A DNA stretch of 64,000 bases. Source: the human T2T-CHM13v2.0 reference genome, Homo sapiens. Position 1 is the stretch's first letter. Each line of letters starts with the position of its first letter. Below, piece by piece: positions 40,849 through 63,528 of this stretch. The notes under the pieces were generated by a model, which saw only the letters and a program-made list of their open reading frames with translations, was not told the origin of the DNA and searched no databases. The stretch lies in assembly GCF_009914755.1 (NCBI RefSeq), contig NC_060928.1; one strand, given 5' to 3'. The translations under genes were made by a program, and so were the position numbers.

Positions 40849-40899
40849 TTTAGTTCCTGCATTCAAGTTAGGCCTCCTTGGCTCCTTTTCAGTTTAGCC

Positions 40900-41068
40900 C
40901 CTTGCTACTCAAAGTGTGAGCCCTAGACCAGCCTTAGACAGTTCACCCAGGAGCTTATTAAAAATGCAGAATCTCAGGTCCCACTCCTGAACTATTAAAT
41001 CAGAATCTGTACTTTAAGGAGACACCTCCAAGTGACTCCTTTGCACAATAAAATGAGAACCACTGCTT
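40900..41068. mobile_element. MER5A
   Basis: ctactcaaagtgtg...aaatgcagaatctcaggtcccac...gagaaccactg. Confidence 0.85.
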
Positions 41069-58229: not shown

Positions 58230-59579
58230 AACAATCTACCTATTAACCCCAAATTAAATATTATTCTACATATGGACTTAAAAATTATTACATTTGTAAT
58301 TTGGATTATGTTAGTTATCACTAAACAAATATTAATTTTGTTTCGATAGCACCCTGGGAACTACAACCAGGCAAAACTGCAAAGCAAATGAAGGTAAAGC
58401 TGCCTATGACCCCCCTCCCATTCATTTTTAGTCTTTCCAAGTTCTTCTCCATCCCAGTACTACTTCAAGGCTATAAACGAGGCTCCCCAGAGTCCACAAA
58501 ATGTTCCCTCCAAGAGGACATCCTCTAAAGTATTAACAAGTGATACCAGCTCATAGTACAGTTGCTTTTCAGAAAGAAAATAATCTGAGCTGCAGTGAAA
58601 ACTGTCCCACAGAGCTAACCCTGTGACCTGGATCTGAGGGGATTAAAGGCAAAGCTCACTGATTTGAAAAGTGAAATACAGCTGACTTCAGCTTTCCTGC
58701 TGAACCACAGCTTTCTAACTATTCCTTGTCAAAATGTGTGTCACTACAGGCTTTGTCATCAATGATGTCAATGTGAGGCAGCAGCTAAAGAACTGTGTGA
58801 AGACAAAAATGTTAAATAAGAAAAATGCACATATAAACTTTCAATTACCTGTAAATATGTCAGAAGTCCAGTGTAGTAAACACTCCTTCACAAGTCTTTA
58901 AAATCCAAACCTCTGTTAAATTCACCAGGTCTAGGCCTGCTTTCTGGTACTGGTGTTCAGTTCATAACATCTGATTTCCTTCTTTGAATTTATAATTCAT
59001 TTACCAACCATTTAGGCTCAGTAACAAACCTACTTTAGAAAGAGCCAGGCCAGCTCAAGAGAACGACTGGATCTGGGCCATTTTATGTAAACAAAGAATC
59101 ATCTGACTTCATGAATTGTCAAGGGAAATATCATAGGAAGGAAGAGATGGGAATGGAAAAATTAAATACTTCTGTAAATTGCTTGGATCCTGTCTTTAAC
59201 ATACATTTTGTGATATGAGTTCCCACCATGTCTGCAAGTGATTTTGTTTATTAAATGCCCTTCACACACATTATTTTATCTAATTACGAAAACAATTCTA
59301 TGTTGTAGGTTTGCTTGGCTCCATTTTGCACAAAAGGAAATCACTTCTGGTGGAATTTCAGTGATTTAGATGAAACTTACACTTGCCATGTGGCAGACTG
59401 GGGAGTAGACTCCAAATAAGAACTGTACTACGCAGCTTCTTTGCAAAATGCCATGCAGCAATTTTCTTTCGCTCAACACAATATTTCAAAAAGGTATTCA
59501 TAGCTGCTCAATAAAGTGTTTCTTGGCCACAAAAGATTACCATGCTACAGGATTTACAAGATTAAAAGTAATAATTTGG

Positions 59580-59873
<294 letters not shown>

Positions 59874-60069
59874 GTAATAATTTGTTCTCCAGGCTGCGCT
59901 TCTATCTAGGCTTCTGTATATATAGTATATAGGTTTTCTGTTTTGCCTTTTGTTGTAAAGTTGTCAGGAGTCTGTCTTCGCTGCTATAGTATCTCTCCAC
60001 CAGGAAACTTTCTTTTAATTTGCTATCTCTCAGGGGCTGTGAGATTGGAAACCAGACTACCATGTTAAA

Positions 60070-60436
60070 ATCATTCATATAGCAAGCATTTATTGAGCCT
60101 CTTTTATTTATCATCAACAGTGCAGTAGCTGCTGATGATCTGAGCTCCTTTAGACTCAGTCCCTGTCCTCCAGGAATCTGCAGTCCAACGGAGAAGATAA
60201 GCACACAGAGAGAGGAACCCAACAGTGGAGCTCCAGATGCTAATGCAGATATGACACGCTGCTGTGAGTGCACAGGAGATGCGGAAACTAGCTCCGTCTC
60301 TGAGAACGGTTCTCGGAAGTGAGATGTGAGCTGGATTTTGAAGAATATATACAATTTTATTAAGCAAAACAGAGGAAGTGAGGGAATTACAGGCACAAAA
60401 GAACAGAGCATGAGAAAAGTCATGGTATACTGGAAG
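60070..60436 (-). mobile_element. L2 3' fragment
   Basis: tcattcat...gcatttattgagc...cagtccctgtcctccaggaatctgcagtc...tgagctggattttgaag. Confidence 0.8.
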
Positions 60437-61116
60437 GACTTGATGGATTTAGAAAAGGTAGACAACTTAAAATAACAAGTCAAGGAAGACGTTCTATAAA
60501 ATAAACTTTGAGTCAGAGCTATAGGTAAAGGGCATGAGGTTAGTAGATGAACTTGTTGACATCTATTTTGGGTTTGCAGAGGACTTTTTTCTTACATTCT
60601 GGTTAGATGTGTTTGATATTATAATATATTTGGGCTATAAGTAGGTAAACTGTTATTGCCATATGGGACTTTTTTGCGTTGTGATTTTTTCCACTAATCA
60701 ACCTCAGTTTACTCATAAGTACCCATGTATAGCTTACCTGTAACATGTACATACTAAAATATAACTGCAACCCACTAGAGTATGAGTTCCATGAAGGCAT
60801 GACCATCTGTTTTCTTCATTGTTGATTCCCCAGCCCCTAGAGCACTTAAATGTTTGTTGACTGAATAAATGCACAAGTTCATTTATGTTGTGCTTTACAT
60901 AAGTTTACCTACTTATAGTCTAATTATATAGTAATTTCAAACACATCTAACCAAAAAGTAAGAAAACAGGCCTCCGTAAACCCAAAATAGATGTCAACAA
61001 GTTCATCTACTAACCTCATGCCCTTTAGCTCTAGTTCTGACTCAAAGTTTATTTTATAAAACATCTTCCTCAACTGCTAACTTTAAATTGTCTAACTTTT
61101 CTAAATCCATCAAGTC
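60437..61116. repeat. Long inverted repeat: 215-bp arms (60437-60651 and 60902-61116) with a 250-bp spacer
   Basis: Manual alignment of arm 1 to the reverse complement of arm 2 gives 190/215 identities without gaps and a 50-bp perfect block (taaagggcatgaggttagtagatgaacttgttgacatctattttgggttt). Confidence 0.97.
60770..60870 (+). mobile_element. Short L2 3' end inside the inverted-repeat spacer
   Basis: cactagagtatgagttccatgaaggca...ttccccagcccctagagcac...aaatgtttgttgactgaat. Confidence 0.75.
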
Positions 61117-61489
61117 GTGCAAATCATTTTCATGTCTATTACCTTCTTTTATCCTATTAACATGACACAAATAAAAGCAAGCACCATTTTAACTAAATGA
61201 GAAAGTACTCACCCATGCCTGGTTCCTCTAGCTCCCATCACTATGGCCTTAATGCTTCCGTGGCAACATTTAAGAATGGCGCACACATCCCTGCCTTTAG
61301 AGCTACTATTGGCTCATCCCCAAAACAGCCATGCAAATTTTTCTTCACAAGAAAAGCTTCTACAAATCCAACAACCAGCAGCGGTAGTGTTGACGATTTT
61401 GTTTTTTAGAGTATCTATGCCATCTGTTACATCTGGCTTATAACAGGGTGAGCTGAATTGACAAGTGATACCCAATTACAGTAATTATT

Positions 61490-61672
61490 CTAGGGTCCAC
61501 AGAATCACCTGGAGGGCTTGTTAAAGCACAAATTGCTTCTCTCCCCCGCCTCTTTCTACTGCCAGTTTCTGCTTCAGTACACCTGGGGGGAGCACGAGAA
61601 TTTGCATTTTTAACGAGTTCTCTGGTGTTGTTGATGCTGCTGGTCCAGGGACCACACCTTGAGAACCACTGA
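61490..61672. mobile_element. MER5A
   Basis: agaatcacctggagggcttgttaaagcaca...atttgcatttttaac...tgctgctggtccagggaccacaccttgagaaccactg. Confidence 0.9.
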
Positions 61673-61945
61673 TCTGGATAATCAGGACAATCCATTCACT
61701 CTACTATTGTAATTACATCAGTATGCCCTCTGCCTTTTTGTTTAACTTTTTTTCCTATTTTTAATCCACATCAATCTTCAGTCATATACAGAAATAAATG
61801 TTCAGATATAGAAATAAATGTTAATTCGGATACATTATTTTATGAAAACTGAAGTTTCATTCACCTTCTTGCCAATTAAAATGAGTTAAAAGAAGAAAAA
61901 AGTACACAAGAGGGGAAGGTAACTGCAGAGAATTAGTATAACATT

Positions 61946-61995
61946 ATTTTTAAATGAAATACTTCAATTTATTTTTAAATGAAATACTTCAATTT
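61946..61995. repeat. Exact 25-bp tandem duplication
   Basis: atttttaaatgaaatacttcaattt occurs twice in a row. Confidence 0.95.
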
Positions 61996-63528
61996 AGAAC
62001 AAGTTTCTATCACCCAAAGAGAAACAATATTTTGCTAAAATTCTAAATAAAATCCTATAACTGTATTAATAGAAAATCAGACCCATATTTCCAAATGAAT
62101 GGAATTTTCATTATGGAATCAAGTTACTTGGTTCATAAACTTAGTATGTAGAAGCTCTATGCTTCCTAAGGACAAACTGGAAAACAGCTGTTACGGTTTT
62201 TCTTCTCCAAGCCTTAATTTCACAGAGAAGCGCTAATATTCTCTTGTTCATTATATCATATAAGCACCTCACAGTGTTTCCCATTATGAGATTTATCTTG
62301 TTTGCTTTGAAGTTAAAAAGGGAATGATTGTCTGGCCAAGTCAGGACTCATGAAATTCTAAAAGTCGATGAGCTCAATTTTGAAATAAAATGCCGTCTCT
62401 TGCACACACCATATTAAATCTAGAAATCTGTATTTACATGGCTGTTAAATGATATTCCATGTTACAATCCAAATATCTACATATACTATACAAATATGTG
62501 CAGATATATGCTGAAAACTCTAAAGAAAATAAAACAAATGGAATTCTCTGTTTTCAAGTGTTGATAATTAGAATGTTCACTGATTCTAAAGTTTATTAGA
62601 CTGGTGGTAGTATCAGTTCAAATACTGTCCTCTAAGGTTGCAGTTTCTCAGGTGCACACACAAATATTCCACAGATGCATACACAGCAGAGTTAATCCCC
62701 AAAAAACAATGAAAACATCATTACAATACTCTGATGTACCCAATCTTCTGATCTAAAAAATACCAAATGGAGATTTCACAACAGAAAATACTACAGTGAT
62801 AACTGCTTTCATCAACTGACCCCAAAATATTCTATTACATTTCCAAGAAGATAATGTCTTTGCAGTTACACAATGGAGGCCAGAATTTTAAAGAACTATG
62901 AAGAATTCCTACTCCCCATGTGTGGAAATAAGCCAAATCAGAAAGTAGCAGCTCCCATAGAACATTTCAACATTAGATTTGTCAGGGGAGTTATGCTTCC
63001 TCTGAAGCATATTCTCACGACAAAATGGAATAGCCCTGAAGGTAGAGTGTATTTGAGAATCTCTCGTTTAAAAACCCTGAGAGGGAAGGTTAGGATTGAA
63101 GCATTTGCCCAAGTGATAAAACTCCTGCCTTCAAAGCTCTCATTATAGAATTTCTTCAAAGGAATTTTACGTTTCATTAAAAAAAAAGAAACAAAAGAGA
63201 CTTTAAAAAAATCATCAAAAAATCCAAAAATCAAAGTTTTTGCTCTTCTCTTCTCAATGAAAGGGAAAGCAAAGGCAAAGAGCCCCGACCACCGTCCCCA
63301 CAAATGATGTGCCAGTCCTCCCTGTCTGATATCAGACCCTTCCCTTCCCTTGCCCTGCTCTGCCTTGCCCTTCCCAGGAATGACCCTGCAGGCTACCTCT
63401 CTCAGGCACCCCTGCGAAGTGGCTTCTAGTTAGATTTACATAATGGGATGTGGCAGGAGACTGAGGGCCAAAGGAAGGTCAGCTCCAAGATGTGGCAGTC
63501 CTTTTCTCTGTCTCCAGCAGTATCTACA

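What the first reader, a model, noticed from the sequence alone, without database searches (positions are those of the whole stretch)
60437..61116. Non-Alu 215-bp inverted repeat able to form a long dsRNA hairpin or cruciform
Seen in sequence: arm 1 (60437-60651) matches the reverse complement of arm 2 (60902-61116) at 190/215 positions. The arms are equal in length and align without gaps, although one short cluster could alternatively be drawn with two compensating 1-nt gaps. The spacer is 250 bp. I do not recognise the arms as Alu, L1, L2, MIR or a known MITE, and the flanks (ctggaag / gtgcaaa) show no TA or 8-bp target-site duplication. Established knowledge: duplexes of this length in pre-mRNA are substrates for ADAR and can feed Dicer (endo-siRNA) or dsRNA sensors such as MDA5 and PKR, and inverted repeats promote inversion of their spacer. 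Inference: a local inverted duplication that may act as a structured RNA element on either strand.
Basis: partly seen in the sequence, partly recalled or inferred. Interest (0 to 1): 0.8.

Follow-up and report, generated by a model that had tools for sequence, protein, structure and literature searches.

The report
Old single-copy inverted duplication in intron
A 215-base stretch deep inside a DCHS2 intron was copied backwards 250 bases away tens of millions of years ago, leaving a one-off hairpin-forming repeat that looks like an ordinary mutational fossil, not a mobile element or a known RNA gene.

Summary
Arms 60437-60651 and 60902-61116 match at 190/215 positions without gaps, with a 250-nt spacer, sharp ends and no target-site duplication.

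It is not a transposon by the tests I could run. The T2T genome holds no other copy, and the same search finds 72-88% identical copies of a neighbouring old repeat. The spacer carries an L2-like 3' tail only 66% identical to its family consensus, whereas each arm has diverged about 6%. The arms therefore split long after the spacer sequence was in place.

Best reading: a local inverted duplication of the template-switch or fold-back type, about 30-60 Myr old, decaying roughly neutrally.

Either strand folds into a ~215-bp imperfect duplex. On the DCHS2 sense strand 198/215 positions pair and the longest perfect run is 50 bp. It is a plausible nuclear ADAR substrate. It is shorter and less paired than the >300 bp, >96% class that two genome-wide studies treat as likely MDA5 ligands.

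Transcription, editing, small RNAs and primate orthologues could not be tested. It is a new member of a known kind, of low to moderate interest.

The parts
60437..60651 (.). Arm 1 of the inverted repeat (215 nt, 32.6% G+C)
60652..60901 (.). Spacer (250 nt), which becomes the hairpin loop
60740..60881 (+). Old L2-like 3' tail fragment inside the spacer. It is 66% identical (93/140 aligned positions, 40 gap columns) to a consensus of 40 genomic tails.
   Evidence: The family name L2 is recalled. PMC4476161 (passage) says L2 ends in a TGAA repeat.
60902..61116 (.). Arm 2, the reverse complement of arm 1 at 190/215 positions
60526..60575 (.). Mismatch-free 50-nt core in arm 1. Its partner in arm 2 is 60978-61027.
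   Evidence: P = 0.020 for a run this long with 25 randomly placed mismatches
60088..60318 (-). Context only: a second L2-like 3' tail on the minus strand in the left flank, head to head with the one in the spacer
   Evidence: 64% identical to the consensus over 114 aligned positions

Best explanation
This is a fossil of one local mutational event. During replication or break repair in an early anthropoid or primate ancestor, a 215-nt stretch was copied in reverse-complement orientation and laid down 250 nt from its source. The likely mechanism is a template switch or fold-back priming (the '3-2-1-4' type of the four-point model, or a small MMBIR/FoSTeS-like event). The two copies have since drifted apart at roughly the neutral rate. 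When the DCHS2 intron is transcribed from the minus strand, the RNA can fold into a ~215-bp imperfect duplex closed by a 250-nt loop. By established ADAR substrate rules this would be edited promiscuously in the nucleus and discarded with the intron. Shown: the repeat, its uniqueness in the genome, the absence of transposon hallmarks, the greater age of the spacer, and the predicted fold. Inferred: the mechanism, the date, neutrality, and any editing.
For: (1) Single copy. A genome-wide DNA search with the whole element, one arm or the spacer finds only this locus. A 26-nt core allowing up to 3 mismatches is found only in the two arms, with 0 control hits. The same DNA search with a neighbouring 221-nt old repeat gives 1309 first-look candidates and 39 non-self scored hits at 72-88% identity. 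The blank for the arms is therefore informative down to about 72% identity.
(2) There is no target-site duplication of 2-12 nt at the ends. The only shared word is a 5-mer 12-13 nt away.
(3) Age order. The arms differ by K80 = 0.127, about 6.3% per arm. The L2-like tail in the spacer is only 66% identical to its family consensus and carries large deletions. The spacer is therefore old host DNA, not the inside of a young element.
(4) All four junctions are sharp and the arms are equal in length and ungapped, as expected from a single copying event.
(5) The 12% divergence between arms rules out an assembly or read-chimera artefact, which would give near-identical arms (inference).
(6) There is no sign of selection for pairing. 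Of the 13 transition mismatches, 8 give G:U on the gene's sense strand and 5 on the other strand. Transitions:transversions are 13:12.
(7) Template switching is a documented one-step source of inverted repeats and hairpins in human DNA (PMC5453318, passages).
Against: The event was not seen directly. No outgroup genome was available, so I cannot show a pre-duplication state or say which arm is the copy. No microhomology is visible at the junctions, although later substitutions could have erased it. At 215 nt copied across 250 nt, it is larger than any event in the great-ape template-switch catalogue (median 12 nt, maximum 128 nt). That scan only searched within +/-100 nt (PMC7954356, passages). 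Mismatches are not evenly spread: a 50-nt perfect run has P = 0.020, and the poorest 81-nt window holds 3 mismatches (P = 0.049). This hints at later arm-to-arm conversion or constraint. Membership of a very old, highly diverged repeat family cannot be excluded: the same DNA search also missed the L2 tail in the spacer.
Confidence: 0.75

Rival explanations
1. The arms are the terminal inverted repeats of a non-autonomous DNA transposon (a MITE with long TIRs), and the spacer is its interior.
For: The architecture is superficially right: equal arms, sharp outer ends and a 680-nt total length. The genome DNA search cannot see families as diverged as L2; it missed the L2 tail in the spacer.
Against: No other copy exists in 3.1 Gb, by DNA search or by a 26-mer with up to 3 mismatches, while the positive control finds 72-88% copies of a neighbouring repeat. 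A family young enough to keep its arms 88% alike should leave copies about 88% alike. There is no TSD. The interior holds an L2-like fragment several times more diverged than the arms. The termini do not resemble the hAT, Tc1/mariner, piggyBac or MuDR ends that I recall (recalled, not tested).
Confidence: 0.08
2. The hairpin is a selected RNA element in DCHS2 pre-mRNA, or in an unannotated transcript. It could be an ADAR-editing hub, a Dicer substrate giving endo-siRNAs or a young miRNA, or a splicing or intron-processing structure. Whatever its origin, pairing is maintained.
For: The predicted folds are very stable: -324 kcal/mol on the plus strand (z = -29.5) and -332 kcal/mol on the minus strand (z = -26.6). 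A 50-bp perfect core is longer than expected (P = 0.020). Template switches are reported to create hairpins and de novo miRNAs (PMC10710096 and PMC8794818, search listing only).
Against: No Rfam family matches within the element. There is no strand bias towards G:U-tolerated changes (8 against 5). 17-20 of the 215 positions are unpaired. The location is deep intronic and no other transcript is annotated (hub table). Stability follows trivially from the duplication. Searches for DCHS2 with 'inverted repeat' gave 2 unrelated papers, and DCHS2 with 'A-to-I' gave 0.
Confidence: 0.07
3. The arms are two independent insertions of the same interspersed repeat in opposite orientation, like an inverted Alu pair.
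For: Two L2-like tails do lie head to head in this region, so opposed old repeats occur here.
Against: The arms have identical end points, no gaps and 88% identity. No related copy exists anywhere else in the genome. Profiles of the L2 3' region built from 37-40 genomic copies do not detect the arms: nhmmer gives nothing, and the best semi-global z is 1.6, with 37/500 and 30/500 shuffles scoring as well.
Confidence: 0.02
4. It is an assembly artefact, a palindromic chimera in the long-read assembly.
For: Missed-adapter or fold-back reads can create false palindromes (recalled).
Against: Such artefacts give essentially identical arms with no spacer or a tiny one. Here the arms differ at 25 of 215 positions and are 250 nt apart.
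Confidence: 0.01

Closest known systems
Template-switch mutations (four-point model; Loytynoja & Goldman 2017, PMC5453318; Walker et al. 2021, PMC7954356)
   Same: A reverse-complement copy of nearby sequence is laid down in one step. This creates an inverted repeat that can form a hairpin, without a target-site duplication. The geometry fits the '3-2-1-4 / 1-4-3-2' type, which makes up 31% of the human-chimp events.
   Different: Catalogued events are far shorter (median 12 nt, maximum 128 nt) and were searched only within +/-100 nt. Here 215 nt were copied across 250 nt. The ancestral state was not observed, so the event is inferred, not demonstrated.
Inverted Alu pairs and other repeat-derived intronic dsRNAs (the main ADAR substrates)
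   Same: A long imperfect intramolecular duplex in a pre-mRNA intron, of similar arm length and pairing to the 15 Alu-type inverted pairs in this same window.
   Different: The arms are not Alu and belong to no detectable repeat family. They arose by local duplication, not by two insertions. The spacer is much shorter: 250 nt against 880-4929 nt for the window's other pairs.
'Non-repetitive' predicted dsRNAs of the dsRNAscan catalogue (PMC11838218)
   Same: It falls in that class. About 497,000 non-repetitive dsRNAs are predicted genome-wide, with a median of 75 bp unedited and 144 bp edited. Edited ones tend to have more than 30 contiguous bp and shorter loops. This one has 50 contiguous bp and a 250-nt loop.
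   Different: I could not confirm that it is listed. The one supplement file held as text does not mention DCHS2, and the full tables were not available. It is longer and more stable than the class medians.
Long, nearly perfect dsRNAs considered likely MDA5 ligands (Barak et al. 2020, PMC7006430; PMC11838218)
   Same: An inverted duplicated sequence inside a pre-mRNA.
   Different: It fails both published cut-offs (>300 bp and >96% identity or pairing): it is 215 bp and 88% identical, or 91-92% paired counting G:U. It is intronic, so it is not expected to reach the cytoplasm.
MITEs / non-autonomous DNA transposons with long terminal inverted repeats
   Same: Two equal inverted arms around a short interior, 680 nt overall.
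   Different: Single copy, no TSD, and an interior older than the arms.

Membership tests
DNA transposon / MITE | Multiple related copies in the genome | tested here: not met
   Only this locus is found. The positive control for the same search finds 39 copies of a neighbouring repeat at 72-88% identity. Families as diverged as L2 would be missed.
DNA transposon / MITE | Target-site duplication directly flanking the terminal inverted repeats | tested here: not met
   The immediate flanks differ at every length from 2 to 9 nt. The only shared word is a 5-mer lying 12-13 nt from the ends.
DNA transposon / MITE | Interior of the same age as, or younger than, the termini | tested here: not met
   The spacer holds an L2-like tail 66% identical to its consensus, against about 6% divergence per arm.
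DNA transposon / MITE | Terminal bases typical of a superfamily; match to a Dfam/Repbase consensus | not testable with these tools
   No Dfam or RepeatMasker library was available. My impression that the termini fit no superfamily is recalled only.
Template-switch / fold-back inverted duplication | Reverse-complement copy close to its source, one contiguous ungapped block | tested here: met
   215 nt, ungapped, 250 nt apart.
Template-switch / fold-back inverted duplication | Ancestral (outgroup) sequence lacks one arm | not testable with these tools
   No primate or mammalian genomes are held. Only the window's own genome could be searched.
Template-switch / fold-back inverted duplication | Microhomology at the switch points | tested here: inconclusive
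   No extension of similarity beyond the arms. About 6% later substitution per arm could hide 1-3 nt of microhomology.
Inverted Alu pair | Both arms are Alu elements | tested here: not met
   Alu-related Rfam matches lie only at 59581-59860. The arms are not among the masked stretches in the hub table.
Known structured RNA / miRNA family (Rfam 15) | Match to a covariance model | tested here: not met
   None of the 5 matches at E <= 1 in 59500-62000 lies within 60437-61116.
Long nearly perfect dsRNA (putative MDA5 ligand class) | >300 bp and >96% identity or pairing | tested here: not met
   215 bp; 88.4% identity; 195/215 (plus strand) or 198/215 (minus strand) paired counting G:U. The cut-offs come from passages of PMC7006430 and PMC11838218.
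ADAR substrate (editing-enriched region) | Long duplex in a transcribed RNA with clustered A-to-I sites | not testable with these tools
   The duplex is predicted. Expression and editing data (GTEx, REDIportal) were not available. A literature search for DCHS2 with 'A-to-I' found 0 papers.
LINE-2 (L2) derived sequence (arms) | Significant, collinear match of the arms to a profile of the L2 3' region | tested here: inconclusive
   Profiles built from 34-40 genomic copies detect the two tails but not the arms. Semi-global alignment gives z = 1.6 for either arm. One isolated local score (z = 4.26) appears for arm 2 only and not for arm 1.

The most novel reading that the evidence does not exclude
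The repeat is an unusually large single-step template switch: 215 nt copied across 250 nt, beyond the 128-nt maximum of the great-ape catalogue. It would have created a long hairpin de novo in DCHS2 pre-mRNA in an anthropoid ancestor. Its mismatch-free 50-bp core would be kept by recurrent arm-to-arm template switching, gene conversion or selection, and the hairpin would be a primate-specific source of heavily edited RNA or endo-siRNAs.
Probability: 0.06. Interest if true: 0.5.

Novelty: new member of a known kind. Interest (0 to 1): 0.25.

Why it matters
It is a clean, datable example of a hairpin-forming inverted repeat that arose from unique sequence without any transposon. Its size falls between the short template-switch mutations (tens of bases) and the kilobase-scale inverted duplications studied in disease. 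Outgroup genomes could confirm a one-step origin. That would extend the documented size range of local template switching and give a natural test of how fast a long intronic duplex decays when nothing maintains it. There is no sign that it matters for DCHS2 or for innate immunity.

Tried and rejected
(1) Are the arms part of an L2 element?
- I recalled two short motifs of the L2 3' region. Both are real high-copy motifs: 1679 and 73 genomic matches against 0 in the controls.
- I fetched 40 of the 49 perfect matches to the first motif and 40 of the 73 matches to the second. I masked Alu-like parts in 32 of the 80 loci and built profiles in several ways.
- Tail profiles found the two tails.
- A global MAFFT profile of 38 loci found nothing in the region.
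- Three seed-iterated nhmmer profiles found nothing, or only a 29-nt piece of the spacer tail.
- Sliced profiles of 34-37 loci did not hit the arms.
- Local and semi-global alignments to the profile consensus were not significant. The left flank, which by eye continues the minus-strand L2, reaches only z = 1.5. The arms reach z = 1.6.
- One of 24 local tests was high: arm 2, plus strand, against the furthest-upstream slice (z = 4.26, 0 of 300 shuffles as good). The matching test on arm 1 gave z = 0.06, so I treat this as chance.
- Result: an L2 origin of the arms is neither shown nor excluded, and the polarity of the duplication (which arm is the copy) stays open.

(2) A sequence-only covariance model of the two arms could not be run on this genome.

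(4) Coding potential: three ATG ORFs of at least 40 aa overlap 60400-61150. The two I scanned have no Pfam match.

(5) Published lists: DCHS2 is absent from the supplement text held for PMC11838218 (1 file) and for PMC7006430 (3 files). In the latter I saw only 2 of the 11 chr4 rows, and its list is limited to >300 bp and >96% identity.

(6) A cruciform seems unlikely. Single-stranded DNA folds at -183.6 kcal/mol. I judge extrusion from duplex DNA with a 250-nt loop and 12% mismatch to be unlikely, on recalled knowledge only.

Full report
**What is there.** The window lies wholly inside one intron of DCHS2. The gene is on the minus strand, and none of its 20 exons falls in the window (hub table). 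At 60437-60651 and 60902-61116 there are two 215-nt arms that are reverse complements of each other at 190 of 215 positions. There are no gaps, and 250 nt lie between them. The 25 mismatches are 13 transitions and 12 transversions, and 2 of them lie at CpG sites. Similarity ends abruptly at both the outer and the inner ends of the arms. The match is far beyond chance: blastn gives E = 1.6e-76 within the window and nhmmer gives 4.7e-42. The window holds 16 inverted pairs of at least 80 nt lying within 5 kb of each other. This pair is the most complementary and has the shortest spacer, and the other 15 all overlap ~300-bp stretches that the hub lists as masked repeats.

**Not a mobile element by the available tests.** The T2T genome (3.1 Gb, 24 contigs) contains no other copy.
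- The whole 680 nt, one arm and the spacer each retrieve only this locus.
- A 26-nt piece of the perfectly conserved core, allowing 3 mismatches, occurs only in the two arms, with no hits to the reversed control.
- The blank is meaningful. The same DNA search with a neighbouring 221-nt stretch (61480-61700), which is an old interspersed repeat, gave 1309 first-look candidates and 39 non-self scored matches at 72-88% identity.
- The limit of the search is also visible. It did not find relatives of the L2-like tail that sits in the spacer, so families as decayed as L2 would escape it.
- There is no target-site duplication. The immediate flanks differ at every length tried, and the only shared word is a 5-mer 12-13 nt from the ends.
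- Rfam has no match inside the element. Its 5 weak matches in 59500-62000 are Alu-related (59581-59860) or a mir-544-like repeat at 61504-61634.
- Two of the three ORFs that overlap the region have no Pfam match.

**The spacer is much older than the arm split.** I recalled a 28-nt motif as the 3' tail of LINE-2. It has 1679 genomic matches with up to 2 mismatches, against 0 for the control. A passage of PMC4476161 states that L2 ends in a TGAA repeat, but the family name otherwise rests on my memory. I built a profile from 40 of the 49 perfect-match loci. It finds two such tails:
- Plus strand at 60739-60881, inside the spacer (E = 7.5e-13).
- Minus strand at 60088-60318, in the left flank (E = 1.6e-7 to 1.6e-6).

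They are 66% (93/140) and 64% (73/114) identical to the profile consensus and carry large deletions. The arms differ by K80 = 0.127, about 6.3% per arm. The arms therefore split several-fold more recently than the spacer repeat was inserted. This is hard to reconcile with a transposon that delivered arms and interior together, or with two ancient insertions.

**Date.** With substitution rates between 1.0e-9 and 2.2e-9 per site per year, the split is about 63 to 29 Myr old (the rates are recalled). This is an inference, and it assumes no gene conversion.

**Origin and polarity.** The simplest account is one local event that copied 215 nt in reverse complement and inserted them 250 nt away. Such a template switch or fold-back priming event is known to create inverted repeats and hairpins in one step (PMC5453318, passages). 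The catalogued great-ape events are much smaller (median 12 nt, maximum 128 nt), but that scan was limited to +/-100 nt (PMC7954356, passages).

I tried to decide which arm is the original by asking whether either arm continues a flanking L2. Profiles of the L2 3' region, built from a second recalled motif (73 matches against 0 control hits; 40 of the 73 loci fetched), do not detect the arms. Targeted alignments reach only z = 1.6. One isolated high score appeared for arm 2 alone (z = 4.26). Polarity stays unresolved without outgroup genomes, which these tools do not hold.

**Structure and likely behaviour.**
- The plus-strand RNA folds at -324 kcal/mol, against -136 +/- 6 for shuffles.
- The minus-strand RNA, which is the sense of DCHS2, folds at -332 kcal/mol.
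- Single-stranded DNA folds at -184 kcal/mol.
- Counting G:U pairs, 195 positions pair on the plus strand and 198 on the minus strand, out of 215. The longest uninterrupted helices are 52 and 50 bp.

By established ADAR rules such a duplex would be edited if it is transcribed. Being deep in an intron, it would be nuclear and short-lived.

It misses both cut-offs (>300 bp and >96%) that two genome-wide studies use for likely MDA5 ligands (PMC7006430 and PMC11838218, passages). It belongs to the class of about 497,000 'non-repetitive' predicted dsRNAs, though it is longer and more stable than their medians.

I see no signature of selection for pairing. The 13 transition mismatches split 8 to 5 between the strands on which they would be G:U-tolerated.

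The one oddity is that the mismatches avoid the middle of the arms. A 50-nt perfect run has P = 0.020, and the poorest 81-nt window holds 3 mismatches (P = 0.049). This could be chance, a later conversion tract between the arms, or weak constraint.

**In print.** Searches for DCHS2 with 'inverted repeat' gave 2 unrelated papers, and DCHS2 with 'A-to-I' gave 0. The supplement text held for the two dsRNA catalogues does not mention DCHS2. Most of the large tables were not available, so the locus may well be listed there.

**Verdict.** The repeat is real, unique in the genome and cleanly delimited. It is best explained as a 30-60 Myr old local inverted duplication that is decaying about neutrally. 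It is a plausible but unproven nuclear ADAR substrate, and it is not a new kind of element.

Noticed in passing
window 61480-61700 (core about 61500-61672): A ~170-nt old interspersed repeat just right of the element. It gives 1309 first-look candidates in the genome and 39 scored copies at 72-88% identity. Two further copies lie in the window, at 27602-27706 (+) and 40899-41010 (-). It matches Rfam mir-544 weakly: 39.3 bits against a gathering score of 66.5.
   Followed up: partly
window 60088-60318 (-) and 60740-61881 region: 60740-60881 (+): Two ancient L2-like 3' tails lie head to head, 64-66% identical to a 40-copy consensus. One is in the left flank and one is inside the spacer of the inverted repeat.
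   Followed up: yes
window 60526-60575 and 60978-61027: A mismatch-free 50-nt core of the arms. It is longer than expected from 25 randomly placed mismatches (P = 0.020). It could be a conversion tract or chance.
   Followed up: partly
window 59902-60423 (-): A 173-aa ATG ORF spans the edge of the Alu and the minus-strand L2-like tail, with no Pfam match. My rough estimate is that a 64-kb window gives about one ORF of this length by chance.
   Followed up: partly
window 59581-59886: An Alu element (Rfam SRP-like matches at 59581-59697 and 59716-59860) lies 550 nt left of arm 1. It contaminated my first repeat profiles.
   Followed up: yes
window 60902-61116 (+): Arm 2, but not arm 1, gave one high local alignment score to the consensus of the furthest-upstream L2 slice (z = 4.26, 0 of 300 shuffles as good; the arm 1 equivalent gave z = 0.06). 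This is unexplained and probably chance among 24 tests.
   Followed up: partly
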